Below, piece after piece: positions 24,979-42,906 of a stretch of 64,000 bases of DNA (positions are counted from its first letter, which is position 1; each line of letters opens with the position of its first letter). Source of the stretch: a virus. Taxonomy: Duplodnaviria > Caudoviricetes. The translations under genes and the position numbers were made by a program. Below the pieces are notes generated by a model. The model saw only the letters and a list, made by a program, of their open reading frames with translations, did no database searches and had not been told where the DNA came from. Location: positions 4,660 to 68,659 of IMG/VR virus record IMGVR_UViG_2862963355_000001; one strand, 5' to 3'.

Positions 24979-25174
24979 GTTCACTCCCATGTGACAGTCC
25001 CGACCCGGCGGTGTCGCCGAGGGCGGCGGCCCGGAGAGTGCCGCCGTACGGGTGAAGATCTCCGACGCAATCGGCCGCAAACGACGGCGAAGCCTGGTTC
25101 CCCCGAACTAGCTAAATCCTCCAGCGCGTCGAATGAAAGGGACCAGGTCACTGACAGCACCCGTCGGACAGGCT

Positions 25175-26034: not shown

Positions 26035-26114
26035 GCATTCGAGCGTAGCCGCGCCCGCCGACAGCCCGGAATCTGTGCCCGGGGTGGTGAAGTCGGCCCG
26101 TCCCCACCACGACG

Positions 26115-27230
26115 TCAGGCACTAGCGGAAGGTGCTGCAGCGCACACGCGGGTGATCACAGACTCGCTGGTGTTGAGGGCGGTGAACAGGTCCCCTCGCA
26201 GGTCTTCGGGAATGGCGCCGGAGCCCAAAGCACACCCCTCGACGATTCTCTGAAGACGGTCTGCCTGCTGGGCGGTCATGTACTCGTGGCAACCAGGGTG
26301 AGACAGCACATCGCGAGCTGCGTAGCCGTCGCCTACCGCGACGGTCTCCTCGACGAGATCTGTGGCAATACGGCTGGCAATCCCCGGACCCTGTCCACCA
26401 GCAAGGTCGATGGCGGACAGCCCCAGCCGTGTGAGGAACACCGCCAGGCCAGCACTTCGCTCCAGGGAACGGTAGAGATCCACCAAGTCGTCGAGAGCAG
26501 TGTCGACCGGCAGGTTCGCCGTCCGCCTGCACAGCACCGTAAGAAGTGCTGCAATCGCGCTCTCCCACGCCTCACCAGGAACGGTGCCACTCAGCAGGAC
26601 CTCAGCCCGTTCGATGTCTCCCGCCGTGATGTGGGCTATGACGGCAACCTGGCGGCCGTCAAGCATCCTGCTGCCGATGCCCTTGTGCCGCTGGACCTGG
26701 GCATGTGCCTCCGCCCACATGTCGGCGCTGGCCAGGGCGCGCGTACCGTCGGCCAGCAGTACGGTCCACAGCCATTGATGCAGCTTGCGGCGGTCCTCGT
26801 TCGCCCCGGTGACGCGCTCAAAGGACACCTCGTTCCCGTCGATCGTGACGGCCGTGCCGGACGTCACCGCTCGGTACATCGAGTCGAGAAGAGCAAAGCC
26901 ACCGCCTCCGTCGCCGGAACGGATCAGCAGCCGCGCGAGGTTGACCAGGGGCTCCAGGCTGAACCGGGCGACCTGCGCGCCCAGGGGCTGGGTGCGCAGG
27001 TACGCCACGGCGTGACGCCAGCACAGAGTTCGGGCCAGGTCCGGAACGGCACAGTCGCTGGCGAGCAGGGCCGCCTTGTTGAAGGCGGCAGATGCTGGGG
27101 CCAGCCGGCCGGTGCGCTCGGCCTCCCGTGCAAGGCCGCCGATCTCCTGAACTCGATCAACGAGGGGCGAACAGGCAGGCCGAGGCCGGGCGACCAGCGG
27201 AAAACGCCGCACTATCTGGCTGGCGTCCAT
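26115..27230 (-). CDS. Unknown alpha-helical (TPR-like) protein coupled to the lanthipeptide operon
   Basis: ATG 1 nt after the FxlM stop; RRFPLVARPRP...AFNKAALLASDC...LEPLVNLARL. Confidence 0.7.
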   Translation of the reverse strand: MDASQIVRRFPLVARPRPACSPLVDRVQEIGGLAREAERTGRLAPASAAFNKAALLASDCAVPDLARTLCWRHAVAYLRTQPLGAQVARFSLEPLVNLARLLIRSGDGGGGFALLDSMYRAVTSGTAVTIDGNEVSFERVTGANEDRRKLHQWLWTVLLADGTRALASADMWAEAHAQVQRHKGIGSRMLDGRQVAVIAHITAGDIERAEVLLSGTVPGEAWESAIAALLTVLCRRTANLPVDTALDDLVDLYRSLERSAGLAVFLTRLGLSAIDLAGGQGPGIASRIATDLVEETVAVGDGYAARDVLSHPGCHEYMTAQQADRLQRIVEGCALGSGAIPEDLRGDLFTALNTSESVITRVCAAAPSASA

Positions 27231-27231
27231 C

Positions 27232-29352
27232 TCACTGCCACTCGATGACGATCCGGTTGAGGGCATTGTCGAACGCGAATCGTCCCGGCGCCGAGGCCGG
27301 CGGTGCACCATCGAGATTCTGGACTTCGAAGGCCACGTTGCGCTCGCGGAAACCGCGATTCCATACGCCCATCTCTTCGGCCACCCGATCGGCGAGCTCC
27401 TTGCCTGCCGGACCGTGGCCGATGGCTCCCGCCTCGTACAACTGCCCGCCGTCCTCGGCAAGACCAGCCTTCCGCAGCGTGAGGTAGGCGAAGCTGCTTT
27501 GTTCCGCCACCGCCATGGGCCGGAACCCGTCGGCCAGGTTGCTGGCCCCGGCGCCGTTACGATCGACTTCCATCCGGCTGAGGGCGTTGTCCAGGCTGCA
27601 CGACAGCCAGAGCCACATGTACTCCGGCGACTCAGACCCCCGGAACGTCACGCCCGACCACGCTTCGGTTCCCGGCTGGTCGAGCACGCCGCGCAGCGCC
27701 TCGTCCGCCTTCTGCTCCTGGTTGAACTGGAGCTTGACTGCGCCGTCGTCGGTCAGTGCGACAAGGCGCCGCGGGTCATCAGCTACCCCTGCCCGCAGCG
27801 GCATGAACGTGCACATCGCACTGCGGACGCTACGCCAGCGGCCATCTGCGTCCCGCTCGAAGGCGACAGCACGCGAGACGCTGCCCCGCAGCCGGAGAGG
27901 CACGACGAGGCGGCCGTCGGGCGCGAGCTGGTCGAGCCAGGCCGACGGGATCCCGTGAGCACCAACGGTCGCGACGATCCGGTCGTAGGGAGCGCCCTCC
28001 AGGTGGCCGACCGCGCCGTCTCCGAGGATTACGGTCACGACGTCGGCGAATCCGGCTTCTTCGACGGCCGCTTGGGCGTTGTCCACGAGGTCCTGGTCCA
28101 CGTCGATCGTGTATACGTGCCCCTCTTCACCGACCAGACGTCCCATGGTCGAGGCGAACAGGCCGCTGCCGGCACCGCCTTCCAGGATCCTCATGCCCGG
28201 CTTTGCTTCGGTGAGTTCCAGCATGAGGGCGTTGACCGACGGCTGGGAGACGGCGCTGATGGACGCACCGGAGCTGTCGAACTTGGTGTGGACCGGGGTG
28301 TCGGCGTACGCCTCTTCGAGGGTGGCGCCAGGCTTCGACTGGCGTACGAACACGTGTCGAGGTACTGCCCGAAGAGCGGCTTCGATGTCGTCGCTGTGCA
28401 CGCGTCCATCGGCCTTGAGCTGGTCGACCAGCTTGTTGCGGAGGTTCTCGGCAGCGGTGTTGTCGTTGATCGTGTCGGTATCCACGCCGGTGAGGCTAGT
28501 GGCATCAGCGGCCGTGCCTGATGCAGACGCGGCGGATTCGCTCGTTCCCATGACTACCTCTTTCGCCAGGTTTGACAAGGTGCTTTGGTCCTCACTGCTG
28601 AGGCCCAATCGGTTCCAGTGGAAGATCAGGTGGTGGGCGAGTACCGCTCGAAATCCGCGTTCCAGCCGTCCAAGGCGGTGGAGGCGAGCGAGCCGCTGCC
28701 CTGCCCACTCGAACGTGGCAAGCCAGTCGGCCAGTCCCGTCAACGAGCCTCCGTCGACGAGCCTGCTGGTGGCGCTGACATCGACGGTCATGAGCTGTCG
28801 CACAGCCTTCGCGGCCCGGTCGGACACGGGCGCGACCGCCGTGCCTTGTCGCTCAGCGGCCACCCTCGCCCATACGTCGCCCTGCTCGAAACGATCCAGG
28901 CCCGCGGAGCGCATGAGAACGCTGAACAGCAAGATCGCCAGCTCGCGCCGTCCCAGGCCCGGCGCCTCGGGGACTTCCCGCACAGCGGCGGCGAATTCGA
29001 GGATGTGGCGACTGTCGTGGTGAAACAGCTCGTGGGCCAGCTTCATCCCGGCGGCGCCACCGAATGCCACCGCCTCCGGCTCGTAGATCCCCACCGTCCA
29101 CTCGCTGACTAAGCCCTCGGCCCGCAGGCGTTCCAAGAGGCTGTCCAGGCGTGTGGAAGCCCGATCGTCAGTGGGCTCATACCGGATCCGCCAGCACGGG
29201 AATTTGCGCAGGAACGACCACTGCACGATCTCGCCCTCCGCTGCACCGACCTCAAGCTCGGGCAGAAGGTGTTCGGCGGCGAGCTGTTCAGAGTCCGGCC
29301 AGGTGGCGAACTGGACGAGGCGCTGCGGCCACTCGTCAGGTGCCATATTCAC
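27232..29352 (-). CDS. fxlM: FxlM-type O-methyltransferase (PIMT/PCMT-like) fused to an N-terminal SpaB_C/thiopeptide-type elimination domain
   Basis: N-terminal WSFLRKFPCWRIRY...IYEPEAVAFGG...HHLIFHWNRLG; C-terminal VPRHVF...ILEGGAGSG...YDRIVATVG...GRLVVP. Confidence 0.88.
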   Translation of the reverse strand: MNMAPDEWPQRLVQFATWPDSEQLAAEHLLPELEVGAAEGEIVQWSFLRKFPCWRIRYEPTDDRASTRLDSLLERLRAEGLVSEWTVGIYEPEAVAFGGAAGMKLAHELFHHDSRHILEFAAAVREVPEAPGLGRRELAILLFSVLMRSAGLDRFEQGDVWARVAAERQGTAVAPVSDRAAKAVRQLMTVDVSATSRLVDGGSLTGLADWLATFEWAGQRLARLHRLGRLERGFRAVLAHHLIFHWNRLGLSSEDQSTLSNLAKEVVMGTSESAASASGTAADATSLTGVDTDTINDNTAAENLRNKLVDQLKADGRVHSDDIEAALRAVPRHVFVRQSKPGATLEEAYADTPVHTKFDSSGASISAVSQPSVNALMLELTEAKPGMRILEGGAGSGLFASTMGRLVGEEGHVYTIDVDQDLVDNAQAAVEEAGFADVVTVILGDGAVGHLEGAPYDRIVATVGAHGIPSAWLDQLAPDGRLVVPLRLRGSVSRAVAFERDADGRWRSVRSAMCTFMPLRAGVADDPRRLVALTDDGAVKLQFNQEQKADEALRGVLDQPGTEAWSGVTFRGSESPEYMWLWLSCSLDNALSRMEVDRNGAGASNLADGFRPMAVAEQSSFAYLTLRKAGLAEDGGQLYEAGAIGHGPAGKELADRVAEEMGVWNRGFRERNVAFEVQNLDGAPPASAPGRFAFDNALNRIVIEWQ

Positions 29353-29373
29353 TGTTGCCTCTCTTCGTACGGG

Positions 29374-30645
29374 TCAGTTGATCAAGAAGCATGTGTCCCA
29401 GCCGGATATGGGGGGCGTGCCTGTCTGCGTCGCGTGCAGAGCGAGAGCCACGCCGGCTGCGCCTTCGAGCAGTCCGATGTCGCCGGGCCCGTTCGGCGGC
29501 CGAAGAAGCGATGTGGCCAGAGCAACTGGCTCGACGTGTGTGATGGGAGCGAGCAGGCGAGGCAGCTGCTCGGCGAGGACGGGCTTGATCGCGTCCGCCG
29601 CCATGCTCCGCGTGATGTGCGCCAGCCCCGCAAATCCGTGACAGATGGAGTGATCTCCGGTCGCTTGCAGCTGTTCCGGATCTGTCATCGCGTGTGCCAT
29701 GGCGCTCTCGGCCATCTGTTGCCGCTCTGTGTCGCCCGTCGCGATTCCAGCGAGTTGCAAAGCTCGGGCGATGCCCGCTGTTCCGTAGCACCAGCTCGGG
29801 CGTGAGGGGCCGTTGCCGGCATCGCCGTAGCGAAGCTGCTCTCGGGTGATCCAGTAGGGCCACCAGGGTCCGGCCGGTCCGTCCTGACGCCATCGATCCA
29901 GCCATGCGCAGATCCGGCTGATTGCCTCGGCCTGTCCGTCGACAGTGACACCGCGCCGTGCGGCAATCGACAGAAGAGCCAGTGGGCCACCGATGCCGTG
30001 TGCTACCCCCGTGTTGGCGTGGCCTTGAGGGAATTCCGGTGACGGCTTGCCGGAGGGGGCCAGGTCGCACCACCAACCGGGTACGAGCTCGCCGGAGCTT
30101 TCGATCGGTTCGGTGAGCCGGACCAGGTAGGAAAGGACAGCTCGGGTCAGGTCGACTTGGCCCTCGCGCCTGAGCAGAAGAGCACCGAGGCCGCTCAGGC
30201 CGCGGATGGTGTCGAACTCCGCCAGCGCGGGCAGCTGCCCACGGTCCATTCGGAGATGTGCACGCTCCAGCCGGTGACGCGTCATGTTCTCGATGTGCCG
30301 GTCGAGGGTGTCCAGGGCGCGGGCATACCGCTCGGGCCGGTCTGCCGCCGCGGCGTTCAGAGCGAAGGCGAGCGCGGGGGCGCCGTAGTAGAGGTGACCG
30401 TCCACGCCGCCGACGGCTGGGGCTTCAGCGGCGCAGGTGAGCCAGTCGTGAGCGAGCTTCCACGACGCGATGCCGGAGCGGGCCCGCTCGACGTGTAAGA
30501 GAGCGACGCCTGCGGCGCCGTACGCCAGAGACTGCGGAAACCAGCCCTGTGTGAGTTCAAGCCCGCGCACATCGGCCGGTGAAGCCAAGCGATCGGCGAT
30601 GGCGTCGGCTGCTGCCTGCACCCTGAGGTCTGACGTCTCGCTCAT
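29374..30645 (-). CDS. lanC: Lanthionine synthetase LanC (cyclase)
   Basis: GVAHGIGG, SWCYG and SICHG Zn-ligand motifs, GLLEGAAG. Confidence 0.95.
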   Translation of the reverse strand: MSETSDLRVQAAADAIADRLASPADVRGLELTQGWFPQSLAYGAAGVALLHVERARSGIASWKLAHDWLTCAAEAPAVGGVDGHLYYGAPALAFALNAAAADRPERYARALDTLDRHIENMTRHRLERAHLRMDRGQLPALAEFDTIRGLSGLGALLLRREGQVDLTRAVLSYLVRLTEPIESSGELVPGWWCDLAPSGKPSPEFPQGHANTGVAHGIGGPLALLSIAARRGVTVDGQAEAISRICAWLDRWRQDGPAGPWWPYWITREQLRYGDAGNGPSRPSWCYGTAGIARALQLAGIATGDTERQQMAESAMAHAMTDPEQLQATGDHSICHGFAGLAHITRSMAADAIKPVLAEQLPRLLAPITHVEPVALATSLLRPPNGPGDIGLLEGAAGVALALHATQTGTPPISGWDTCFLIN

Positions 30646-33600
30646 GAATGCCGCGCTTTCCAGGCGAGCGCAGCGGCCCGAGCCAGCCTCAGGCAGGTGC
30701 GCTCGTCGTCTTTGTCGATGCCGGCGGCTCGGATGTGGTGGCCATGGAGGAGCGAATCAAGGATGGTGTCGGGGTTCACGTCCTCGGCCTGGCGCAATAG
30801 CTCCCGATACTGGCCCAGGGCACGGTCGCGGGCTGCCCACTGGGCGTACATCGTCTCTCCACCGGGGGCTGCACGGAGCCCGGCCCAGTTGTCCGAGGGA
30901 TCAGCCAGCCGTACCGCCTCTGCGAGCACGTGTCGATCCAGCGGTTCGGAAGCGTGAATCTTGCCGTACCTGATCATCCAGTCCATGCCCTCGCGCGAGC
31001 CGCCGGAGAAGGCCACCGCAATGGCTATGAGGTTGCTGGCTGCGAGGACCTGCGGGTGGGGGCCGCCTGGTAGGGCGAACTGTTGGGCAAGGCAGCGTGA
31101 GTCGGCGGCGAAGACGGCCTCGACGGCTTGCATGGCTGCCCCGCGTCCCCACCTTCCGGTCTCGGGGTAGGAGGTGGCGAATTGCAGGTCGCTGAGCAAG
31201 CCGTCCTCACGAAGACCATCCGCCCACCTGCTGATCCACGCGGCGGCCTGACCGAAGGCTGCGGGGTCAGGAAGAGCAACCCTCAGGCGAATGTGCGGGC
31301 GCGGGTCGCGGTACCGCATGTACCACCATGCTGGCGGCTGGTCCCATTGCGCGAGGAGCTGCGGGAGGTAGTGGCCCAGGATCTCTGGCTGCCGCTCGTT
31401 GTGCCCGTACAGCTTGGCCATAAGCCATTCGGATCCGCCGGGCAGGCGCCCGTGGCCACGTCCAATGAGGCGGGAAGCGGAGACAGCTGGTGCGGCGGGC
31501 CACTGCGGGGGAACGGCTGCCGTCATCGGAACGGTGATCTCGTGGGCATGGCCACTGAACCAGGTGCTGGTGCCCTGGGGGGCTTCGGCGAGCACCGCGC
31601 GCTCGGAAACGTCCAGGTGCGAGCGCAGGAGTTCGAGGTGTGCGCTGTGCCCGAGGTCCAAGTGCAGAAGTCGGTCGCCCTCGGTCAGGTAGACCGACTT
31701 CGGGAGCCGGCGTTGCTCTGCCCACCTTTGCAGCTCCTCGCGCCACTCTTTCCACGGAGCAGCGCGGCTGGGCAGTTCGGAGCGCGTCAGTCGCCACCTG
31801 GCCGGCGAGAGGACCGTTCGGCCGTAGCGCAGGCGCGGAAGGAACGGGAGCCGATCAGCAATTCCCCACGTGAAGCCGGTGACGACGGCGGCCTGCGCTT
31901 TGCCGATCTCGCTGAGGAACCGGGCCAAGGGCGGGGTGTGTGTTCGCAGGTCGAGAGCGTGTAGTGCGTAGGCGTCCACTCGGGCCTTTCGGGATACCGA
32001 AGCCAGGTAGAGGCGACGTCGGTCGCAGCCCACTGCGAGATCGCTCAGCGGAATCACGCTCGGGCCGGCTGGTCGGTGTTCCGCCACGCTGATGATCTCG
32101 GGGGCCAATGCGGGCGCGCGGGTTACGTGGGCGTCGCTCGGGTCGAGCGGTGCAAAGGAGAGCTGGGCCAGCCGCGTACCGGGATCGGTCGTCGGCAGTT
32201 GCGCGATTTCACGGGCTGCTCGGGCTCGATCAGATTCGTCCAGCAAACCGATGAAGCGACCGGACAGGGTACCGACGCCGCGGGAGGCACTGATGACAGA
32301 GAGCGTGAAGTCGCCGCTGTCGAGTGCGTGGACCGACTCGGCGTGAAGTTGGAACCGCAGCTCGAAGTGAGGAGGGATCTGCAGCCTCTTTCGGTCCCCA
32401 AGCTGTAGCTCGGTGATCGTTTGCTCATCGAGCTGGACCTCGTCGCGACCGTCGAGCGCGGCGCTTTGGGCCAGGGCAAGAAGCTGGTGGTCGCGCGTGC
32501 TCGCCAGCCCTTCCGGCTCGGGCTCTCCATCGAGGTATCCAGCGGGGAACCCAAGACCGATGTCGGGGTCAACGACGTCCCGGAGCGGGACGAGGGAGCC
32601 GATGCCGTACCGCTCAAAGAATCTGTTGTGGTATTCCTTCCACGCCGCAGTGCCGAACGGCCAGGCAGTCAGCTGCGCCAATGCCGTCGCTGCCGATTCG
32701 GCTTCACGGCGAACCTCCCGCGGGAGGGTGAGTGAGCAGTCCACGCGCAGGTCCACCGCCAGGGGCTGAGAGGCGACGGCGCTCACGTCCGTCATCAGGC
32801 CCCGCAGCTCGGCGCGCAGACACCGGCTGGCGGGACCGGTGCCTACCTGGCTGTGCTCGTTCATGCGACGGCGAACAGAGCGGAGACGACCAACGATCTC
32901 ACTGGCCTCAGGCACGTCTTCGATACGGGCCGCTTCCACCTGATCCATGAGGTGAGCGAAGGCGTCGAACGTGGTCGACGGCGCATGGAGGCTGGTGATC
33001 AGGGCTCCGTGTTCCACCAAGGTCTCGATGAGGGGAGCAATCTTGCCTGCTGCCTTGGGGAACTCGGCGGCCACCTTCTCCACCAGCTCGTCGTAGCGGA
33101 CCGGCGCTCGGGCAGCTTCGACCGCTACCCGGACTGGTGCGGTGTACCTCAGGCGCGCCTCGGCCACGGCACCACCTTCCACGGGGCGACGCCGGGGCGG
33201 GTATGGAACGACCAGCCGGTTGCCCCGTAAGAACACCGCTGCATTTGCCATGAGCGGTAGCCGACACAGCACCTCCGGCACGGCTTCCAGCTGGCCGATG
33301 ACGTCACTGAGCCAGGCGGAATCAGCACGGGCAAGGGCACGGTGCCGTTCGCCCCAACGAACCGCGGTCTCGGCGCCGAATTCGGCCGGCGCCACACCAG
33401 CGAACAGTCCGAAAGGTGTGGCCCGACTCGTCATCCGCATCACGTATCGGATCACGGACAGAACCGTTCGGCGCACCTGCCGTACGTCCAGGCGCGCGTC
33501 GGAGCACACCGCTCCCACCTGCTGTGCAAGGTCCGGGCTCGCCAGCTCGATCGCTTCGGCAACCGCGGACAACGCCCAGACTTCTGCCAGCCATTCGCGC

Positions 33601-33734
33601 CACCGCTGCACCTGTCCGGGCGAATCGTCAGCCATGTCCGGCCAGGCTGGCAGGTCCAGTTCGGACCAACAGGCGGCTCGTACGAGCACCGACTGACCAC
33701 ACCGATACAGCTGTCGGCTACGTCTCGAAGCCAT
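30642..33734 (-). CDS. lanB: Class I lanthipeptide dehydratase LanB (full length)
   Basis: 1030 aa; RATPFGLFAG, KLYG, WWYMRYRDPRPHIRLR, SYPETGRWG. Confidence 0.95.
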   Translation of the reverse strand: MASRRSRQLYRCGQSVLVRAACWSELDLPAWPDMADDSPGQVQRWREWLAEVWALSAVAEAIELASPDLAQQVGAVCSDARLDVRQVRRTVLSVIRYVMRMTSRATPFGLFAGVAPAEFGAETAVRWGERHRALARADSAWLSDVIGQLEAVPEVLCRLPLMANAAVFLRGNRLVVPYPPRRRPVEGGAVAEARLRYTAPVRVAVEAARAPVRYDELVEKVAAEFPKAAGKIAPLIETLVEHGALITSLHAPSTTFDAFAHLMDQVEAARIEDVPEASEIVGRLRSVRRRMNEHSQVGTGPASRCLRAELRGLMTDVSAVASQPLAVDLRVDCSLTLPREVRREAESAATALAQLTAWPFGTAAWKEYHNRFFERYGIGSLVPLRDVVDPDIGLGFPAGYLDGEPEPEGLASTRDHQLLALAQSAALDGRDEVQLDEQTITELQLGDRKRLQIPPHFELRFQLHAESVHALDSGDFTLSVISASRGVGTLSGRFIGLLDESDRARAAREIAQLPTTDPGTRLAQLSFAPLDPSDAHVTRAPALAPEIISVAEHRPAGPSVIPLSDLAVGCDRRRLYLASVSRKARVDAYALHALDLRTHTPPLARFLSEIGKAQAAVVTGFTWGIADRLPFLPRLRYGRTVLSPARWRLTRSELPSRAAPWKEWREELQRWAEQRRLPKSVYLTEGDRLLHLDLGHSAHLELLRSHLDVSERAVLAEAPQGTSTWFSGHAHEITVPMTAAVPPQWPAAPAVSASRLIGRGHGRLPGGSEWLMAKLYGHNERQPEILGHYLPQLLAQWDQPPAWWYMRYRDPRPHIRLRVALPDPAAFGQAAAWISRWADGLREDGLLSDLQFATSYPETGRWGRGAAMQAVEAVFAADSRCLAQQFALPGGPHPQVLAASNLIAIAVAFSGGSREGMDWMIRYGKIHASEPLDRHVLAEAVRLADPSDNWAGLRAAPGGETMYAQWAARDRALGQYRELLRQAEDVNPDTILDSLLHGHHIRAAGIDKDDERTCLRLARAAALAWKARHS

Positions 33735-33825
33735 GTGCTCCCTCCCTCGTAAGCCCTTCAGCCAGGTGCCGGTTCGGGCAGCGGCGTACCACTGCCCGAA
33801 CCGGCATGGACTAGCGCCCCTGTGG

Positions 33826-33972
33826 TCAGGCCACCTTGGTGGCGCACGCGCTGGGGCACGAGCTGCCGCAGCCGTCGTCCGTCAGCACGATCAGCCGACC
33901 GTCATCGACGCCGGACTCCAGAACGCTGACGTCCAGGTCGAACTCGTCCTTCATCTCCACTTTCATCTCCAC
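33826..33972 (-). CDS. lanA: FxLD-family lanthipeptide precursor 2 (48 aa)
   Basis: GGAGG RBS; MEMKVEMKDEFDLDVSVLESGVDDGRLIVLTDDGCGSSCPSACATKVA; not in the ORF track. Confidence 0.92.
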   Translation of the reverse strand: MEMKVEMKDEFDLDVSVLESGVDDGRLIVLTDDGCGSSCPSACATKVA

Positions 33973-34089
33973 GGGGTTTCCTCCAAGGGTTGAGGCCGAT
34001 CCGAAGGTTCGGCTCGGTGAGCCGGTTCCGCCGTCGCCGACGGCGCCCAGAACACGTTGGCGTCGGTCCTGGGAGTTCGAGGTGTTGCG

Positions 34090-34263
34090 TCAGGCAGCGT
34101 TGCTGACACACGAGGTGCCGCAAGTGCTCCCACAACCACCGTCGGAGGCCGCGAGTTCGATGGTGGTCTTACCGGCGTCCAAGACGGTGATGTCCAGATC
34201 GAACGGGTCCTGAGCGACGGCGCCGGTGGACTCCGGCTGCCCTTCCAGCGTGCTGAGCATCAT
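34090..34263 (-). CDS. lanA: FxLD-family lanthipeptide precursor 1 (57 aa)
   Basis: GGAGG RBS; MMLSTLEGQPESTGAVAQDPFDLDITVLDAGKTTIELAASDGGCGSTCGTSCVSNAA; not in the ORF track. Confidence 0.92.
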   Translation of the reverse strand: MMLSTLEGQPESTGAVAQDPFDLDITVLDAGKTTIELAASDGGCGSTCGTSCVSNAA

Positions 34264-34470
34264 GGTGATACCTCCGTTGACTGGTCGAGACGATCTTGCG
34301 GTGTTGCAGATAGCCGGTCAGGCCCTGGAGCGTAGTGAGATAGCCACACGGCCCAGGCAGTTCCGGCCACCGGTCCGAGGTGCCATGCACCACGTGCTGG
34401 AGCGTGCGGGGCCGCTTCCCCCGGACCGGGGTTCAGGTATGCCGCCGACGCTCACCGCGGCGGCCGTCGT

Positions 34471-35391
34471 TCATGCCACAGCCAATTCGAGCTGGTGGTT
34501 GAGCACGTCCGAGAGGATGTCGGCGTCGAGCGTGAGGCGGACAACGTGGTGATCCGAGTCCGCCTCCGGGACCTCGATCACGTCAACGCCGACCACAGTT
34601 CCAAGCAGGTCGCTCGTGGCGTAGATGCGGTCGATGCGTGAGTCCGGACCGTGGGTCTCGCAACCGTTGACCGTGCGAGAAAGCGCCTTCGCGCTCCCAT
34701 CCCGCGTGTTCGCCCAATGGCGCGCGACATCCTCCAGCCCCGCCGTGCGCAGCGCCTCGTCCGGGCGGGTGTCCATGACGCGCCTGCCGCCGGGCCCAAC
34801 GAAGGACCGGTGCAAGCGGTGCGGCCGGTCGGCTATGGCCTTCAGTTCCGGCAGGGCGACGTCTCCCTCTACACCCGGTGAGGGGTACGAGTTGTTGTCC
34901 CCAGCGAGGAGAGCTGGCATCCGCACGGTCTCGCCGTCGGCCGTCGTCCACGTCTTGTCGGCCCAGACCGTGAGCCATTCGGCCTCGGCGAGCCGGGTGG
35001 TCGGGGAGGCGTAGTTCAGGTGGTACGAGGCCACCGCGATCGGCATGGATCGACTGCCCGCCGGCGTGAACCGCAAAGTCATGGCTGTCGGAGGCAGCAC
35101 CCACATCGGGCCGGTCTGCGGCCACTCTCTCAGCGGCTGGAACTTGCGGGGGTCGGCGAACACCGCAGTGCACGCCCGCGGGCCCAGCCAGCCGCGCAGG
35201 CCGAGGACATCCTCCAGCTCGTACATGATCTCGTTGCCGTTGGTGTCCGCTCCCCACATCTCCTGCCGGAGGACGAGGTGCGGATTGAGGGATGCAAGCA
35301 ACTCGTGCGCCCGGAGCCTCTTCGCTGCAATGCCCGCACCATTGCGCTCGAAGTTCCAGGACAGGACGGTAATTTGGGACTTCCGGTTCAT
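34471..35391 (-). CDS. Endonuclease/exonuclease/phosphatase (EEP) family protein B
   Basis: SWNFE, RQE, YHL, GDNNS, RIDRIY, SDH motifs. Confidence 0.88.
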   Translation of the reverse strand: MNRKSQITVLSWNFERNGAGIAAKRLRAHELLASLNPHLVLRQEMWGADTNGNEIMYELEDVLGLRGWLGPRACTAVFADPRKFQPLREWPQTGPMWVLPPTAMTLRFTPAGSRSMPIAVASYHLNYASPTTRLAEAEWLTVWADKTWTTADGETVRMPALLAGDNNSYPSPGVEGDVALPELKAIADRPHRLHRSFVGPGGRRVMDTRPDEALRTAGLEDVARHWANTRDGSAKALSRTVNGCETHGPDSRIDRIYATSDLLGTVVGVDVIEVPEADSDHHVVRLTLDADILSDVLNHQLELAVA

Positions 35392-35409
35392 TGGTGGTCG
35401 CCTCCCGAG

Positions 35410-36336
35410 TTAGGCAGCCGTGGCGGCGCTGGGTGCCAGTGCGCGGCGCACACCGGAGAGGCTGAAGGTGGCCACGACAGGACAGTGATCGGACGCTTCA
35501 CGGATCTCGTCGTTGACGATGACCTCCAGGCTCGTCAGGGCCTGGGCGACCTGCGGCGTGGCGTAGATCCGGTCGATGCGCTGCATCTCGCCTTGGTCCC
35601 TGCGCCACAGGGACGCGGTCGGAGAGAGCGCGCCGGGCTGGCGCAGCCGCGTTGCGGCGTACTGCCCCAACTCGACGAACACCGGAGGTCGGCCGTGGTG
35701 TGTACCGGCGAGGATGTGATCCGGGCGCGTGTCGGAAACGCGCTGCCCATCCCGGTCGACCGTGCGGTGCTCGAAGTGACTGCGATCCTCCACCTCGTCC
35801 CAGTCCGGGAGGAAGGCCGCCTCATCCTCACTGTGCGGATAGGAGTTGCAGTCGCCACCGATGATCGCCGCCATCCCGGGCTTGCCCAGGGTGGTCAACC
35901 GCCGCGCCTCGTTGACTCGCCGGTCGGGGTCGAAGGAGCAGAGGTGGAACGACGCGAGACTCAGCTTTGTCTGGGCACCCTTCAGCCGCACGACAGGGTT
36001 GCAGATGGGATGCCACATGCCGGTCGCGTGCTCGTAGAACTCGGTCGGCTCGCACAGGCCCGGATCGGTGTAGACGCCAGTCGCGTTCGCGGACTCCGGT
36101 GTGGCGCTGGCGAGGAACGCGGCGTGGCCTCCCAGACGAGCGGCCTCAGCCCACACCGCGCGCCTGCCGTACATGTCCGCGCGGGTCAGCTCCTGGCGCA
36201 GCAGCACATGGGGGTTGAGAGCAGCAAGGACCTCCATGGCGAGATGCCAGCGTTCGTCCGAGCCATCACGGCCGGTGCCGTTGTGCTCGACATTCCACGA
36301 GACCACGCGGAAGGCATCGTCATCGGACTTACTCAA
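35410..36336 (-). CDS. Endonuclease/exonuclease/phosphatase (EEP) family protein A
   Basis: SWNVE, RQE, FHL, GDCNS, RIDRIY, SDH motifs. Confidence 0.88.
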   Translation of the reverse strand: MSKSDDDAFRVVSWNVEHNGTGRDGSDERWHLAMEVLAALNPHVLLRQELTRADMYGRRAVWAEAARLGGHAAFLASATPESANATGVYTDPGLCEPTEFYEHATGMWHPICNPVVRLKGAQTKLSLASFHLCSFDPDRRVNEARRLTTLGKPGMAAIIGGDCNSYPHSEDEAAFLPDWDEVEDRSHFEHRTVDRDGQRVSDTRPDHILAGTHHGRPPVFVELGQYAATRLRQPGALSPTASLWRRDQGEMQRIDRIYATPQVAQALTSLEVIVNDEIREASDHCPVVATFSLSGVRRALAPSAATAA

Positions 36337-36396
36337 GGAGTCCCCCTCAAGGTGGATTGATGAAGGCGGTCAGCAAGCAAGGCGGAGGAAGCGAGG

Positions 36397-37083
36397 TCAA
36401 GAGCGAGCAGCCGCGACCTCCCGTTCGAGATCGACGACAGTGACACCGCGCAGCTCGCGTACGAGTTGAGACGCCAGGAACCACGGCCTGAGCAGACGCT
36501 CCTTGTACGACAAGGGCCGATCCGCTTCCTCGTCGCTGACCTTCACGGGCACGGGCCGCATGTCGGGGCCGGTGGTGTAGAGAGTGCCGACCACTCCGTA
36601 CAGACGCGGTACGCGCACCCGAATCACCACAGCCCCGGCCCTCACCAAGTGGCCACACTGCTCGACCGCAACCACAGCGCAATCAAGGCAGAGAGGCGGC
36701 TGCCAGGTAAGGGCGCCCTCTGGCCAATCCGACTTCACGGAATCATCTGGCCTCGTTGCCAGGAACAGGTAGCCGCTGGCGGTCCGGCTGGCCGGCTGGA
36801 CGACGCACACCTGGCACCGGAGCCCCTGCATCGCCTCCCGCTGCCGAGACGGATGGACCTCCCGCCATCGCGGAGAGCCGACGGGCCAGCCGTCCTCGCG
36901 ATTCTGGGAGCACCGGGCCCAGAGGACCCCTTGATCGTCCCGATCCCTGGGGCCCTCGTCCAGGTAACAGAGCCCTCCGCCACCGGGGCGAAGGCCGAGC
37001 ATCGCGGCCGAGTCCGGATCCTCGCCCCGCCGAGCGGTGACGTAGGGGACGACGGAAGACCACGGCATCAGAGGAGTAGTCAT
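36397..37083 (-). CDS. Hypothetical Cys-motif (CQVC...CLDC...C) protein
   Basis: 228-aa ORF coupled to the DUF5999-like gene. Confidence 0.7.
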   Translation of the reverse strand: MTTPLMPWSSVVPYVTARRGEDPDSAAMLGLRPGGGGLCYLDEGPRDRDDQGVLWARCSQNREDGWPVGSPRWREVHPSRQREAMQGLRCQVCVVQPASRTASGYLFLATRPDDSVKSDWPEGALTWQPPLCLDCAVVAVEQCGHLVRAGAVVIRVRVPRLYGVVGTLYTTGPDMRPVPVKVSDEEADRPLSYKERLLRPWFLASQLVRELRGVTVVDLEREVAAARS

Positions 37084-37330
37084 GCCGCAGCCCGCGCATC
37101 GATCGAGAGCGAACGATGCGGCTGGATGATCCGGCCGTCCGGCAGCAGCTCACCGGTGTCCTCGAAGAGCAGGACACCGTTACACAGCAGGCTCCAGCCC
37201 TGCTCAGGGTGGCAGGCCACGGGATGTGCTGCCTCCCGGTCAGTGGCCTCCGCGGCGGGGCAGGCGGGGCGGTGCTGACAACGTGGGTACGCGTCCGGCT
37301 TACGGAATGCCGGTGGCGTGGCGCGTTTTG
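37080..37330 (-). CDS. DUF5999-like small Cys/His protein; start uncertain
   Basis: CQHRPACP...HPEQGWSLLCNGVLLFEDTGELLPDG. Confidence 0.7.
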
Positions 37331-39697: not shown

Positions 39698-40570
39698 TCA
39701 GGTCGCAGGTGGAGCGTACGCATGTTCTGACCTCTTGTCCCCATCGCTGCGCTGCCGCGGTAGCTGGACATCCGGCCTGGGGCCGAAGGCCCGTCGACAG
39801 CGGGGATGCGAGATGGGCCACTCTGCTGCGTCCTCGACGGCGCGGAGCGTTCCGGCCGCCTTATCCGCGTCCTGGTGAGAAGTCCACCCGCAGTCGGAGC
39901 CGTCGAAGACCTCAACGAAGCTGACACCGGCCTGACGAGACCTGTTGAGGGTGCCCGCGTTATAGGCGACGGCCGACTTCGCGAGCGTGGCGGCCTCGGC
40001 CCATGCCCGCACCGGGACGCGGGCTCCGTTGCGGTAGATGACGTGCGTCAGCTTGTGCTTCGCGGCGAGCCGGTTCGCGAGGTTCTTCGCGGCCCGCTTC
40101 GCGGTCATGTTGCCCGCTGCCAGCAGTGGCACTTCGCGGCGAGCAGCCTGCCGCACTGCCCGGTAGAACTGGCTGGCCATCCGTTCGGCTTCCTCGGAGC
40201 GGCGCAGGAAGTCGGCGTAGGAGTCTGCTGCGAGCGACTGCAGTGCGTCACGGTGGAACGTGGTCCAGGTGAAGGTCACGCCCAGGGCCTCGGCAGCCGT
40301 CCGCCCGCCCTCTTCGTACAGATGAGGGAGCTGCCGCTGTACGAACTGCCGGGCCTCTTGATCCACGCGCTGCCGGAAGTCCCTGATCGCCTGCTTGAAC
40401 TCCTCCAGAGTCGCCAGGGTGTAGGGAGTACGCGGATTGTCCGCGAACTTGGCGATCACCTCCCGCTGTTTGGCCTCCAGGCGCTGCCAGGCGTCCTCGA
40501 GTACGGCTGCGACGCGGCGCGCGATCTCATCGGGGTCGCCGGGTATCAGTGGCGGCCACTCGTACGGCAT
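39698..40570 (-). CDS. Phage minor capsid protein (MuF-like)
   Basis: VEVFDGSDCGW...PISHPRCRR C-terminal motif. Confidence 0.75.
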   Translation of the reverse strand: MPYEWPPLIPGDPDEIARRVAAVLEDAWQRLEAKQREVIAKFADNPRTPYTLATLEEFKQAIRDFRQRVDQEARQFVQRQLPHLYEEGGRTAAEALGVTFTWTTFHRDALQSLAADSYADFLRRSEEAERMASQFYRAVRQAARREVPLLAAGNMTAKRAAKNLANRLAAKHKLTHVIYRNGARVPVRAWAEAATLAKSAVAYNAGTLNRSRQAGVSFVEVFDGSDCGWTSHQDADKAAGTLRAVEDAAEWPISHPRCRRAFGPRPDVQLPRQRSDGDKRSEHAYAPPAT

Positions 40571-40577
40571 AGCCGCT

Positions 40578-40904
40578 CTACCTTGTACGCCGAGACGGCA
40601 GGAGCGGCGCGGTGACCAGGTCGGCGCTGGCCTCTCCTGCCGCCGGATCATCCGGGGCGACGAGTTCAGTGAGGCCCGTGATCTGGCGCTCCAGTCCGGC
40701 AAGGTTGTTGCTCTGATCGATAGTGACCACGCCGTCAACGGTCATGCGCAGCGGTTCAGCGAGCAGCTTGGCACGGCGTTCGGCAAGAACCTCTGCGGCG
40801 ACCGCGCGGGCTCGTCCGAGTCGGGCGTAGCGGGCGGCGAGGTCTTGTTCGTCCGTGGCGGTGCCGAGCTGCGCCCGGAGCCAGGCGAGGAGGATCGGGT
40901 CCAT
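40578..40904 (-). CDS. Putative head-tail adaptor
   Basis: Small helical protein after the capsid genes. Confidence 0.5.
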   Translation of the reverse strand: MDPILLAWLRAQLGTATDEQDLAARYARLGRARAVAAEVLAERRAKLLAEPLRMTVDGVVTIDQSNNLAGLERQITGLTELVAPDDPAAGEASADLVTAPLLPSRRTR

Positions 40905-40975
40905 CAGTGCTCCTGGATGGCCGTGGCCCGCCCCCACCAAGGCGGGGCGGGGACGGGCTGAGGTGTCGTGTGCTC

Positions 40976-41269
40976 TTACTCGTCGGCGTCGGCGGCCTTC
41001 CTGCGCCGCCTCGGTGCCGGCGCCGTCGGTTCGGGCTCGGGCTCGGGCTCGGGCGGCGCGGTAAAGCCGAAGGGCTTCTGCTCGTCCTTCTTCGGCTCGT
41101 CCGGCTCGGACTCCTCCGGGCCGGGCGACGGCTCGTCGTTCTCCCAGGCATCCGGATTGGTGATCTCGGCGGCCAGGTCGTCGTCAGGCTCGTCACCCGG
41201 CTCCAGCACGATCCACTCGCGCGAAGTCGGGTGCTGGACGTGGACGGCGGTGGCGAGGCGGCGACCCAT
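40976..41269 (-). CDS. Small capsid-associated protein with a low-complexity PE-rich tail
   Basis: Directly after the major capsid gene. Confidence 0.55.
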   Translation of the reverse strand: MGRRLATAVHVQHPTSREWIVLEPGDEPDDDLAAEITNPDAWENDEPSPGPEESEPDEPKKDEQKPFGFTAPPEPEPEPEPTAPAPRRRRKAADADE

Positions 41270-42324
41270 CAGATCACCTTGGCCACGATGTGAGCGTCCG
41301 GCGTGTGCAGCACGGGCATGCCGACCGCCGCACCCTTGGTCCAGATCTGAACGGGGTCATCCTGAGCGCCGCGGGTGATGATGATGCCCGGACGGTCCTC
41401 CTTGGTAATCTCCGGGTTCGTCCCGCGCGAGAGCGCCAGGCCCTCGGCAGTCACACCGAAGATCGTCTGCCCCCACTTCGTACGGTCCGGCGGCAGCATG
41501 ATCCACCGGTCCTCCGGGAGCACCTTGGTCTGGACACCGTCGACACGCACCTGCCCCTTGTAGAAGGTGATCGGGGGCAGGCCGTAGTTGTCGCGGACCA
41601 CATTGATCTGCTGCGGGGTGAGCGTCGCGGTCGGAGTGTTCGACGGGTTCACCGAGCCGTAGTAGGCGGCGCGGTAGGCATTGTTTGCGGCGAGGAAGCT
41701 GTACGCCTTCCGGCTGGTGACCACCATGTCGGGGAACGGAGCGCCCCGGTCATCGAGGTATTGGATCCACGCCAGCTCGTCCTTGATTGGGTCCGAGGTG
41801 GGGTCCGACCACAGCTTGGGCGCGGTCGGCAGGTTGCCCGCCGGCACGCCCCAGTCGACCTCGATCGTCAGGCCGTTCTCCGCGTTGAGCGAGAACCTCC
41901 CGTCCACCAGGACGTCGCCCCACGCGAGTTCGACACGGGAGCGGATCGCCTCGACATGCCGCTCGGTGTCGTCGTACAGCAGCTCGATCAGCCGGTCCTC
42001 GTCCGCGCCGCGGGACGCCTCCAGCAGCACCTGCTCCTGCTCGCCGACGAGCAGCTTCTGTCCGAGCGGTGGCAGCATGCCCTCGCGGGTGGTCTGCCAC
42101 GCCTCGCGGGTCGCGAACGGCACGCTGGCGTCGAACGCGCGGTACTTGGCGACGTTGACGTACCGGCCGTTGTCCTTGACCCGCCACTTCACCTCGTCCT
42201 GCTCCAGCGTCGGGATGATCCCGCCGTCCTTGGTGAGCAGGTGGTCCTTCTGTGACGGGATGGCGCGGGCGAATGTCGTGAGGTCGCGGGCGGCGACGTT
42301 CTTGATCAGGTCCTGAATGGTCAT
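41269..42324 (-). CDS. Major capsid protein (lambda gpE-like)
   Basis: 351 aa; DWGVP..N...W; follows scaffold and decoration genes. Confidence 0.88.
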   Translation of the reverse strand: MTIQDLIKNVAARDLTTFARAIPSQKDHLLTKDGGIIPTLEQDEVKWRVKDNGRYVNVAKYRAFDASVPFATREAWQTTREGMLPPLGQKLLVGEQEQVLLEASRGADEDRLIELLYDDTERHVEAIRSRVELAWGDVLVDGRFSLNAENGLTIEVDWGVPAGNLPTAPKLWSDPTSDPIKDELAWIQYLDDRGAPFPDMVVTSRKAYSFLAANNAYRAAYYGSVNPSNTPTATLTPQQINVVRDNYGLPPITFYKGQVRVDGVQTKVLPEDRWIMLPPDRTKWGQTIFGVTAEGLALSRGTNPEITKEDRPGIIITRGAQDDPVQIWTKGAAVGMPVLHTPDAHIVAKVI

Positions 42325-42337
42325 CGTCGGCCGCCTC

Positions 42338-42757: not shown

Positions 42758-42906
42758 AGCCGTCCTCCCGTGGACGTGAAGCGAATCGGATTCGCGCACT
42801 CACCTGGTGGTGGCGCCGTCCACGGGAGGAGTGAGGGGCGTGGTCCCCATGTCCGGCTATCCCGCCGGTGGGGTCATGGTGTGCGCCATGACGTCGCTGA
42901 ACCTGG

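What the first reader, a model, noticed from the sequence alone, without database searches (positions are those of the whole stretch)
33826..34263. Two divergent FxLD precursor peptides missed by the ORF track, each with an Asp-Gly next to the first ring
Both have GGAGG RBSs and FDLD leaders (EFDLDVSVL, PFDLDITVL). The cores differ: TDDGCGSSCPSACATKVA and ASDGGCGSTCGTSCVSNAA, each with three Cys. Both carry Asp-Gly, the context favoured for aspartimide formation by PIMT-like enzymes. Two different substrates for one LanBC/FxlM set suggest a two-component product or broader target range. The start of precursor 2 also has a 12-nt tandem duplication (MEMK-VEMK).
Basis: partly seen in the sequence, partly recalled or inferred. 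Interest (0 to 1): 0.7.

Follow-up and report, generated by a model that had tools for sequence, protein, structure and literature searches.

The report
Two lanthipeptide precursor genes, coi-type operon
The two small genes are real precursor peptides of a well-described Streptomyces lanthipeptide operon (the coi / "lanthivirin" anti-phage family), here carried by a prophage. Having two different precursors is a known minority arrangement, and one of them lacks the aspartate that the family's methyltransferase normally modifies.

Summary
Observation confirmed. Two minus-strand ORFs, A1 (34263..34090, 57 aa) and A2 (33972..33826, 48 aa, GTG start), each have GGAGG 7 nt upstream. Both pass NCBIfam TIGR04363 (FxLD lanthipeptide). 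They head an operon of LanB, LanC, a glutamyl-lyase/PIMT-methyltransferase fusion (TIGR04364) and a LanH/CoiH homologue.

This is the published coi / lanthiphage / lanthivirin family, whose S. coelicolor cluster has three precursors. The scan has met this family on other genomes and judged it ordinary.

In 46 loci (45 related ones plus the window) the precursors form a conserved ordered array: p1 (A1 type), p2 (A2 type) and often p3 (CoiA1 type). All 36 p1-bearing loci have a TDDGC partner next door.

- A2 carries the invariant T-D-D-G-C A-ring, so published coi chemistry should transfer to it.
- A1 is S-D-G-G-C. The canonical second Asp is Gly, and its remaining Asp varies or is lost in other p1 copies. 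Several p1 genes are decaying.

A true two-component product is therefore not supported. A second, differently tailored product is more likely. The 12-nt duplication is real but probably neutral. "Missed by the ORF track" reflects only a length threshold. The cassette sits among prophage morphogenesis genes. New member of a known kind; modest interest.

The parts
34090..34263 (-). lanA1 (p1-type FxLD precursor, 57 aa). Leader ends ...PFDLDITVLDAGKTTIELA(A). Core is SDGGCGSTCGTSCVSNAA. Predicted rings are S1-C5, T8-C13 and S15-C9.
   Evidence: ORF. TIGR04363 scores 38.9 bits against a cut-off of 30. Orthologues are named 'FxLD family lanthipeptide' by NCBI. It is the first gene in 35 of the 36 p1-bearing loci; the order is reversed in L085. 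The ring map is by register with mCoiA1 (PMC9486935).
34271..34275 (-). Shine-Dalgarno GGAGG of lanA1, 7 nt before the ATG
   Evidence: Read from the sequence.
33826..33972 (-). lanA2 (p2-type FxLD precursor, 48 aa from GTG). It has a short N-terminal leader. Core is TDDGCGSSCPSACATKVA. Predicted rings are T1-C5, S8-C13 and T15-C9. The canonical Asp is D3, followed by Gly.
   Evidence: ORF. TIGR04363 scores 50.2 bits. It is identical in IMG/VR contig L044. In L045 the first codon is ATG instead of GTG. It matches the published motif TXDXCXXXCXXXC (bioRxiv 10.1101/2024.06.26.600839).
33980..33984 (-). Shine-Dalgarno GGAGG of lanA2, 7 nt before the GTG
   Evidence: Read from the sequence.
33949..33972 (-). 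In-frame 12-nt tandem duplication (GTGGAGATGAAA GTGGAGATGAAG). It adds four residues (VEMK) to the N-terminus of the lanA2 leader.
   Evidence: It matches at 11 of 12 bases. There are 3 such repeats in the window against 0.23 expected. It is shared with L044 and L045 but absent from more distant p2 orthologues, which start M-x-x-D-E-FDLD.
33762..33809 (-). GC-rich RNA hairpin (18-21 bp stem) between the lanA2 stop and the lanB ribosome-binding site. It is probably an attenuator or transcript-stabilising element that sets the precursor-to-enzyme ratio.
   Evidence: MFE -57.9 kcal/mol, z = -5.6, and 0 of 200 shuffles fold as well. A 9-26 bp hairpin of different sequence lies after the last precursor in all 45 related loci. 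No significant structure lies between A1 and A2 (z = -1.15).
30642..33734 (-). lanB, full-length class I dehydratase (1030 aa)
   Evidence: Pfam Lant_dehydr_N at 1.4e-218 and Lant_dehydr_C at 1.7e-40.
29374..30645 (-). lanC, lanthionine cyclase (423 aa)
   Evidence: Pfam LANC_like at 1.9e-49. It is 97% identical to the copy in IMG/VR contig L044.
27232..29352 (-). CoiSA-like fusion (706 aa): N-terminal second glutamyl-lyase domain plus C-terminal PIMT-type O-methyltransferase (FxlM / LanSA / LphDE)
   Evidence: Pfam Lant_dehydr_C covers residues 21-265 and PCMT covers 305-520. TIGR04364 scores 420 bits against a cut-off of 320.
26115..27230 (-). LanH/CoiH (LphF/LvnF) homologue, last gene of the operon. 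The published family function is oxidation of the A-ring methyllanthionine to a sulfoxide.
   Evidence: It has no Pfam, NCBIfam or PHROG match. It is 43-59% identical to the fourth gene of 40 coi-like loci, and 86-95% in L044 and L045. The function is taken from bioRxiv 10.64898/2026.08.26.747419.

Best explanation
A1 and A2 are two paralogous, co-transcribed precursor genes of a coi-type class I lanthipeptide operon. This family is also called FxLD, 'lanthimiditide', or 'lanthiphage/lanthivirin'. In this genome the operon is a cargo cassette inside a Streptomyces prophage.

Shown here:

- Both genes are real, conserved and ordered. A1 belongs to the p1 lineage and A2 to the p2 lineage of a recurrent p1-p2-(p3) array.
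- One LanB, one LanC, one glutamyl-lyase/methyltransferase fusion and one LanH follow them.
- A conserved hairpin separates the precursors from the enzyme genes.

Inferred from published work on CoiA1 and OlvA:

- LanB glutamylates Ser/Thr at core positions 1, 8 and 15.
- The two lyase domains eliminate glutamate. The fused one makes the E-isomer at Thr15.
- LanC closes three rings: C5 to 1, C13 to 8, and C9 to 15.
- For A2 (A-ring T-D-D-G-C), LanH should oxidise the A-ring thioether to a sulfoxide. The methyltransferase should methylate the second Asp, which is followed by Gly, giving aspartimide and then isoAsp.
- A1 should adopt the same ring topology but with Lan-MeLan-Lan instead of MeLan-Lan-MeLan. 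Its A-ring is S-D-G-G-C and lacks the canonical Asp, so it most likely gives a second product that is tailored differently or less.
- By family analogy, the products act inside the lysogen against infecting phages and are not secreted antibiotics.
For: - Gene reality: HMM scores lie above the cut-offs. Both have GGAGG plus a 7-nt spacer. Rough dN/dS is about 0.45 for p1 and 0.37-0.5 for p2. A GTG/ATG swap occurs at the predicted A2 start in L045.
- Operon content.
- Conserved array: the census of 46 loci (window included) gives p1-p2-p3 in 27, p1-p2 in 7, p2 only in 6, p2-p3 in 3, and other orders in 3. All 36 p1-bearing loci have an adjacent TDDGC peptide.
- Ring residues among unique sequences: p2 and p3 have Thr1 and Asp-Asp in 47 of 47, and Thr15 in 44 of 47. 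p1 has Ser1 in 25 of 27, Gly3 in 23 of 27, Thr8 in 27 of 27 and Ser15 in 27 of 27.
- Hairpin.
- Prophage context: tape measure, Dit, tail tube and capsid E by Pfam. Terminase, portal and integrase by PHROGs. The same element appears as an IMG/VR viral contig at 96.6% identity.
- Literature: ring pattern and lyase roles in PMC9486935. Three coi precursors, LanH sulfoxide and 'second Asp' methylation in bioRxiv 10.64898/2026.08.26.747419. Anti-phage function, the motif TXDXCXXXCXXXC and enrichment on prophages in bioRxiv 10.1101/2024.06.26.600839. Asp usually followed by Gly in PMC13001092.
Against: - No chemistry or phenotype was measured for this cluster.
- All published biochemistry is on CoiA1 (p3 type) or OlvA. 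Neither a p1-type nor a p2-type peptide has been characterised in the papers I could read.
- The window's enzymes are only about 55% (LanB), 68% (LanC), 56% (fusion) and 48% (LanH) identical to the bulk of the multi-precursor clusters, so specificity may differ.
- The methyltransferase might accept Asp2-Gly3 of A1.
- The mature form is unknown even for coi (leader removal, final mass).
- The loci were retrieved with A1-type patterns, so architecture frequencies are biased towards p1-bearing clusters.
Confidence: 0.85

Rival explanations
1. Two-component system. The A1 and A2 products are obligate partners that act only, or synergistically, together, as in two-peptide lantibiotics.
For: - p1-type peptides were never found alone. 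All 36 p1-bearing loci have a TDDGC-type gene next door.
- The pairing also occurs, in reversed order, in a Pseudonocardiaceae MAG (L085).
- p1 keeps a distinct, conserved scaffold (Ser1, Gly3, Thr8, Ser15).
- Both genes lie upstream of the same hairpin, so they are made together.
Against: - The dependence is one-sided. p2 and/or p3 occur without p1 in 10 loci.
- p1 is broken or ring-defective in at least 6 species (Ser1 to Tyr, Cys5 to Ser, Cys5 to Phe, Cys9 to Arg, a GC insertion, and a frameshifted remnant in L083). Their p2 and p3 are mostly intact; the exception is L083, whose p3 has also lost a Cys.
- p1 evolves faster than p3 (rough dN/dS 0.45 against 0.19; p2 about 0.4-0.5).
- There is one LanB/LanC set and the same predicted ring topology. 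Known two-peptide lantibiotics instead have two dedicated LanM enzymes and two different folds.
- Published heterologous anti-phage constructs of this family are described as carrying 'the precursor lanthipeptide gene', in the singular (bioRxiv 10.1101/2024.06.26.600839, methods).
Confidence: 0.1
2. A1 is a redundant paralogue drifting towards loss. It is still translated and perhaps cyclised but contributes nothing. A2 alone gives the active product.
For: - p1 has been damaged independently in several species.
- p1 lacks the canonical Asp, and its remaining Asp is Ala or Glu in some orthologues.
- p1 has a higher rough dN/dS than p3 and is comparable to p2.
Against: - 31 of 36 p1 copies keep all ring-forming residues.
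- Thr8 and Ser15 are invariant and Gly-Gly is nearly so. That is a pattern of a different constraint, not of no constraint.
- dN/dS is well below 1.
- In the window and its two close relatives, A1 is intact with a strong RBS. It shows 2 synonymous changes against 1 conservative change between the window and L044.
Confidence: 0.12
3. The peptides are conventional secreted lantibiotics that kill competing bacteria, and the prophage carries them as a competition weapon for its host.
For: Class I lanthipeptides with FxLD leaders include many antibiotics. Prophages often carry bacteriocins.
Against: - The co-oriented block 26115-36336 contains only the lan genes and two EEP-family genes. I found no LanT/ABC exporter, LanP protease or LanFEG/LanI immunity gene among them.
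- The cores lack the lipid II-binding motifs named in PMC7268733.
- The family's tested members protect the producing cell against phages, and no secreted product could be isolated (bioRxiv 10.1101/2024.06.26.600839; 10.64898/2026.08.26.747419).
Confidence: 0.04

Closest known systems
coi cluster of Streptomyces coelicolor A3(2) (CoiA1-3, CoiB, CoiC, CoiSA, CoiH), also called lanthiphage_Sco or lanthivirin
   Same: - The gene order is the same: several precursors, then LanB, LanC, a glutamyl-lyase/methyltransferase fusion, and LanH.
- The leaders are FDLD type.
- A2 has the same A-ring (T-D-D-G-C) and the same spacing of Ser/Thr and Cys as CoiA1.
- No exporter or protease is present.
- Several precursors share one enzyme set.
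   Different: - The window has two precursors, not three. It lacks a CoiA1-type (p3, ...TDDGCKP[ST]C...) gene.
- A2 is the short-leader p2 type, with a shifted Pro (GSSCPSAC against GSTCSSPC) and a 4-residue leader duplication.
- The enzymes are only about 48-70% identical to those of the main multi-precursor clade.
- The cassette lies inside a prophage structural module.
olv cluster / OlvA(BCSA) of Streptomyces olivaceus (lanthimiditide; NMR structure 6PQF)
   Same: It is a class I FxLD precursor. A PIMT-type methyltransferase acts on an A-ring Asp after cyclisation, giving aspartimide and then isoAsp.
   Different: - Olv has a stand-alone methyltransferase without the extra lyase domain, and it has no LanH.
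- Olv has an additional N-terminal Lan ring.
- Olv differs in MeLan stereochemistry (PMC9486935).
Two-peptide lantibiotics (lacticin 3147, haloduracin; class II)
   Same: Two different precursor genes lie side by side in one operon.
   Different: - Those systems use two dedicated LanM synthetases.
- They give structurally unlike alpha and beta peptides, have export and immunity genes, and show demonstrated synergy.
- None of these features is present or shown here.

Membership tests
FxLD family lanthipeptide precursor (NCBIfam TIGR04363) | Profile score above the curated cut-off of 30 bits | tested here: met
   A2 scores 50.2 bits and A1 scores 38.9 bits. The six-frame genome search gave the same result.
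FxLD family lanthipeptide precursor (NCBIfam TIGR04363) | F-x-L-D leader motif and a Cys-rich C-terminal core, encoded next to LanB, LanC and an FxLD-system methyltransferase | tested here: met
   FDLD is present in both peptides, each with three Cys. LanB, LanC and TIGR04364 (420 bits against a cut-off of 320) lie directly downstream.
coi-type / lanthiphage (lanthivirin) BGC | LphB + LphC + LphDE (fused PF14028 and PF01135) + LphF/LanH | tested here: met
   The fourth gene is homologous to the fourth gene of 40 coi-like loci. I did not compare it directly with CoiH itself.
coi-type / lanthiphage (lanthivirin) BGC | Core motif T-X-D-X-C-X3-C-X3-C, reported in 57% of family cores | tested here: met
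   A2 (TDDGCGSSCPSAC) fits exactly. A1 (SDGGCGSTCGTSC) keeps the Ser/Cys spacing but has Gly at the Asp position.
coi-type / lanthiphage (lanthivirin) BGC | Confers resistance to phages on the producing cell | not testable with these tools
   The prophage location agrees with the published enrichment on prophages, but it is not a functional test.
Lanthimiditide (aspartimide/isoAsp lanthipeptide, OlvA type) | PIMT-homologous O-methyltransferase encoded in the cluster | tested here: met
   PF01135 at 4e-43, and TIGR04364 above its cut-off.
Lanthimiditide (aspartimide/isoAsp lanthipeptide, OlvA type) | Conserved Asp at the third position of the A-ring (the 'second Asp' of T-D-D-G-C), usually followed by Gly | tested here: inconclusive
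   - Met for A2: D3-G4.
- Not met for A1: position 3 is Gly, and its Asp sits at position 2.
- Among unique p1 sequences, position 2 is Asp in 22, Ala in 3 and Glu in 1 of 27.
- All 21 FxLD peptides outside the tandem array listed from the genus sample have Asp at position 3.
Lanthimiditide (aspartimide/isoAsp lanthipeptide, OlvA type) | Observed methylation, aspartimide or isoAsp in the product | not testable with these tools
   This needs mass spectrometry or NMR.
Two-peptide (two-component) lantibiotic | Two dedicated modification enzymes and two structurally different peptides | tested here: not met
   There is a single LanB and a single LanC. Both cores have the same Ser/Thr-Cys register.
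Two-peptide (two-component) lantibiotic | Mutual dependence or synergy of the two peptides | tested here: inconclusive
   Comparative data only. p1 is never found without a partner (36 of 36 loci), but p2/p3 occur without p1 in 10 loci and p1 decays in at least 6. The activity test was not possible.

The most novel reading that the evidence does not exclude
The p1 lineage (A-ring S-D-G-G-C, Lan-MeLan-Lan, no canonical Asp) is a distinct functional class of lanthivirin. It escapes Asp methylation, and perhaps A-ring sulfoxidation. It is kept beside canonical TDDGC peptides because it widens or changes the range of phages blocked, or modulates the activity of the canonical peptide. On this reading, a prophage carrying p1+p2 delivers a two-specificity chemical defence to its lysogen.
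Probability: 0.2. Interest if true: 0.55.

Novelty: new member of a known kind. Interest (0 to 1): 0.3.

Why it matters
The family is among the most common lanthipeptide clusters in Actinobacteria and was recently linked to anti-phage defence. The structure of its active product and the role of its tailoring steps are still open.

This locus adds no new kind of system, but the comparison made here yields a usable natural experiment. Within one operon, one precursor (A2) keeps the invariant T-D-D-G-C ring that the methyltransferase and LanH act on. Its neighbour (A1) keeps the rings but not the Asp, and not the Thr-derived A and C rings. Testing the two peptides separately would show whether the Asp/isoAsp and sulfoxide modifications are needed for activity.

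The prophage location also gives a concrete case of a phage carrying such a cassette in its morphogenesis module. The cassette borders are defined at about 26100 and 34477.

Tried and rejected
I therefore could not inspect the neighbourhoods of the eight A1-like database proteins directly. A genome-contig scan replaced that step.
- A sequence search of the PDB with A2 gave no hit, so OlvA/6PQF was not retrieved.
- No isolated phage in the INPHARED collection carries the cluster. The only LanC hit was a 23%-identical Staphylococcus phage gene, and the precursor DNA had no match.
- Acedo et al. 2019 (PMC6812601) and Zhang et al. 2015 (PMC4475899) are not held. The OlvA sequence and the first description of the coi precursors were taken second-hand from later papers.
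- No paper in the library mentions CoiA2 or CoiA3 by name. The mapping of p1 and p2 to those names is therefore not established. Only CoiA1 = p3 type could be matched, through its printed leader.
- The consensus promoter/terminator scan of 33600-34600 found nothing. The hairpin lacks a U-tract, and Streptomyces promoters are not covered by that scan.
- My first regex census missed divergent p1 copies. It was replaced by an HMM census.
- A first parse of ring positions was mis-anchored and was redone.
- I considered and rejected a third, degenerate precursor between A2 and lanB. Only 91 nt lie there, and the hairpin fills them.

Full report
**1. The observation**

On the minus strand there are two small ORFs.
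- A1 runs 34263..34090 and encodes 57 aa. It starts at ATG and ends ...ELAASDGGCGSTCGTSCVSNAA.
- A2 runs 33972..33826 and encodes 48 aa. It starts at GTG and ends ...LIVLTDDGCGSSCPSACATKVA.

Each start codon is preceded by GGAGG and a 7-nt spacer. Both peptides contain FDLD and three Cys. BLASTP aligns them at 41% identity. In that alignment Ser matches Thr, Asp matches the first Asp, and Gly matches the second Asp of the first ring.

Both pass the curated cut-off of NCBIfam TIGR04363, 'FxLD family lanthipeptide', at 38.9 and 50.2 bits against 30. A six-frame search finds exactly these two in the 8.3-Mb genome.

The 12-nt tandem duplication at the start of A2 is real, at 11 of 12 bases. It is one of three such repeats in the window, against 0.23 expected.

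**2. Surroundings**

Directly downstream on the same strand lie four genes.
- A full-length LanB (33734..30642).
- LanC (30645..29374).
- A 706-aa fusion of a second Lant_dehydr_C (glutamyl-lyase) domain with a PCMT-type O-methyltransferase. It matches TIGR04364 'methyltransferase, FxLD system' at 420 bits against a cut-off of 320.
- A protein with no Pfam, NCBIfam or PHROG match (27230..26115).

Between the A2 stop and the lanB ribosome-binding site lies an 18-21-bp GC-rich hairpin (about 33762-33809, z = -5.6). The A1-A2 spacer has no significant structure.

The whole block sits inside a prophage.
- Terminase, portal and capsid E genes lie on one side.
- DUF6093, tail tube, tape measure and Dit genes lie on the other.
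- An integrase gene lies at the window end.

**3. What it is**

The gene set is the published coi type of class I lanthipeptide cluster. It comprises CoiA, CoiB, CoiC, CoiSA (the lyase-methyltransferase fusion) and CoiH (PMC9486935).

Shomar et al. named the family 'lanthiphages', later 'lanthivirins', and showed it protects the producing Streptomyces against phages. They reported that the family is enriched on prophages and plasmids, and that 57% of cores have the motif TXDXCXXXCXXXC. They also reported that 67 of about 2064 clusters have several precursor genes with distinct core variants (bioRxiv 10.1101/2024.06.26.600839).

A 2026 preprint adds three points (bioRxiv 10.64898/2026.08.26.747419).
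- The coi cluster encodes three precursors, CoiA1-3.
- CoiH/LanH oxidises the A-ring methyllanthionine to a sulfoxide.
- The methyltransferase domain is expected to methylate the second Asp of the A-ring.

A 2026 review notes that the conserved Asp is typically followed by Gly (PMC13001092). For mCoiA1 the rings are Cys47 to Dhb43, Cys55 to Dhb50 and Cys51 to (E)-Dhb57. In core numbering these are C5-1, C13-8 and C9-15.

Both window peptives keep this register.
- A2 has T1, C5, S8, C9, C13 and T15.
- A1 has S1, C5, T8, C9, C13 and S15.

**4. Related sequences**

*Genus sample.* Of 200 other sampled genomes of the genus, 69 have an FxLD peptide. Only three of them, plus the window's own genome, have tandem arrays.

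*Close relatives.* An IMG/VR viral contig (L044) carries the same prophage and cluster at 96.6% nucleotide identity. Its A2 is identical, and its A1 differs by two synonymous changes and one Ala-to-Val change.

*Database proteins.* Only eight 90%-identity clusters of A1-like proteins exist among 5.8 billion. NCBI names them 'FxLD family lanthipeptide'. Standard annotation therefore does call these genes.

*Species-representative genomes.* A scan with an A1-type alignment returned 42 loci. Nearly all are Streptomyces. Nearly all encode the same LanB-LanC-fusion-LanH operon; the exceptions are two short contigs, and two loci where no LanH match was found.

*Census.* An HMM census of 46 loci, the window included, shows a fixed order. 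The three types are:
- p1, the A1 type, with core A-S-D-G-G-C...
- p2, the A2 type, with a short M-x-x-D-E-FDLD leader and ...LTDDGCGSTCSSPCATNVA.
- p3, ...LTDDGCKP(S/T)C.GSCATNVA.

The p3 leader equals the printed CoiA1 leader apart from one residue.

The architectures are:

| Architecture | Loci |
|---|---|
| p1-p2-p3 | 27 |
| p1-p2 (window, L044, L045 and four others) | 7 |
| p2 only | 6 |
| p2-p3 | 3 |
| p2-p2 | 1 |
| p1-p3 | 1 |
| p2-p1 (a Pseudonocardiaceae MAG) | 1 |

These frequencies are biased by the query. The statement that all 36 p1-bearing loci have an adjacent TDDGC peptide is not.

A hairpin of different sequence follows the last precursor in every locus. It is therefore a conserved structural element, and the precursors form one transcriptional unit ahead of it.

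**5. The two peptides are not equivalent**

Counts below are among unique sequences.

| Position | p2 and p3 | p1 |
|---|---|---|
| 1 | Thr 47/47 | Ser 25/27 |
| 2 | Asp 47/47 | Asp 22, Ala 3, Glu 1, Gly 1 |
| 3 | Asp 47/47 | Gly 23/27 |
| 8 | Thr 32, Ser 14, Ile 1 | Thr 27/27 |
| 15 | Thr 44/47 | Ser 27/27 |

All 21 FxLD peptides outside the tandem array that I listed from the genus sample also have Asp at position 3.

The Asp-Gly of A1 is thus one residue away from the canonical site. It is not conserved in its own lineage.

Several p1 genes are damaged while their p2 and p3 are mostly intact. The exception is L083, whose p3 has also lost a Cys. The damage includes:
- Ser1 to Tyr
- Cys5 to Ser, and Cys5 to Phe
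- Cys9 to Arg
- a two-residue insertion
- a frameshifted remnant in L083

Rough Nei-Gojobori dN/dS is about 0.45 for p1, 0.37-0.5 for p2 and 0.19 for p3. These sequences are short and the pairs are not independent. The numbers show only that all three are under purifying selection, and that p1 and p2 are less constrained than p3.

**6. Mechanism**

Steps shown here:
- Gene reality and operon structure.
- The conserved precursor array.
- The hairpin.
- The register of ring-forming residues.
- The prophage location.

Steps inferred from the cited biochemistry:
- Glutamylation and elimination by LanB and the fused lyase.
- Three rings closed by LanC.
- For A2, A-ring sulfoxide formation by LanH and methylation of D3, leading to aspartimide or isoAsp.

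For A1 I infer the same topology with Lan-MeLan-Lan. It probably receives no canonical Asp modification. This is a prediction, not a result.

The anti-phage role is by family analogy. It fits the lack of exporter, protease and immunity genes in the block, and the prophage location.

**7. The duplication**

The unit GTGGAGATGAAR occurs twice. The first GTG is 7 nt from GGAGG. L045 has ATG at that codon, which supports it as the start. More distant p2 genes have a single M-x-x-D-E-FDLD start.

The duplication adds four residues to a leader segment whose length varies greatly in the family. It is most simply neutral.

**8. Cassette borders (in passing)**

Against L045, homology at 93% runs from 26100 to 34477 and then breaks. 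The two EEP-family genes and the next gene upstream are replaced in L045. L060 has a p1-p2-p3 cluster in the same slot of a more distant prophage.

**9. Verdict**

It is wrong in treating the two Asp-Gly pairs as equivalent. The two-component idea is unsupported.

The system is a new member of a known, common family. Earlier reports of this scan reached the same verdict for coi-type clusters on other genomes.

The only mildly new points are the systematic p1 scaffold without the canonical Asp and the defined prophage cassette.

Noticed in passing
window 26100-34477: The lan operon behaves as a discrete cassette. Homology to Streptomyces sp. NPDC048637 (L045) at 93% starts just after the LanH stop. 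It ends at the stop of the upstream EEP gene and includes about 210 nt upstream of A1, which may hold its own promoter.
   Followed up: partly
window 34471-37116 compared with L045:8510-9784: In L045, an unrelated stretch of about 1.3 kb replaces the two tandem Exo_endo_phos (EEP) genes and the next gene upstream. An EEP homologue also sits directly upstream of the precursors in L043, L060, L069 and L075, so the EEP-lan association recurs but is not obligatory.
   Followed up: partly
window 15598-26121 and 41269-64000: Prophage modules flank the cassette. Dit, tape measure, tail tube and two DUF6093 genes lie on one side. Capsid E, portal, large terminase, ParB-like genes and an integrase (62255-64000) lie on the other. 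A near-identical element is listed as IMG/VR contig IMGVR_UViG_2684623024_000001 (68 kb).
   Followed up: partly
L060 (Streptomyces sp. NPDC005898): A p1-p2-p3 coi-type cluster lies between a capsid-E homologue (about 75% nucleotide identity) and a DUF6093 homologue, with one EEP gene upstream. This is the same cargo slot in a more distant prophage.
   Followed up: no
L045:5144-5543 and 5519-8512 compared with window 40094-43248: L045 lacks the stretch of the window that holds the major capsid gene. That copy of the element looks like a deleted prophage remnant that still keeps the lanthipeptide cassette.
   Followed up: no
L046, L064, L065, L071, L074, L083: The p1 precursor genes have been damaged independently: Ser1 to Tyr, Cys5 to Ser, Cys9 to Arg, Cys5 to Phe together with FDLD to FDLG, a Gly-Cys insertion, and a frameshifted remnant. 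They sit next to p2/p3 genes that are mostly intact; in L083 the p3 has also lost a Cys.
   Followed up: partly
L085 (Pseudonocardiaceae MAG) 7272-7817: A TDDGC-type and an SDGGC-type precursor are also paired outside Streptomyces. Here the order is reversed and the leaders are divergent (FDLR and FDLS).
   Followed up: no
L055, about 100 nt after p3: The 3' arm of the post-precursor hairpin (CACCGCGCGGGCTGG) is repeated three times in tandem. This is a small local expansion of the attenuator region.
   Followed up: no
window 26115-34263: The lan genes did not pass a GC3 filter of more than 0.80 that most flanking phage genes passed. This hints at a somewhat different codon composition for the cassette. 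I did not quantify it further.
   Followed up: no
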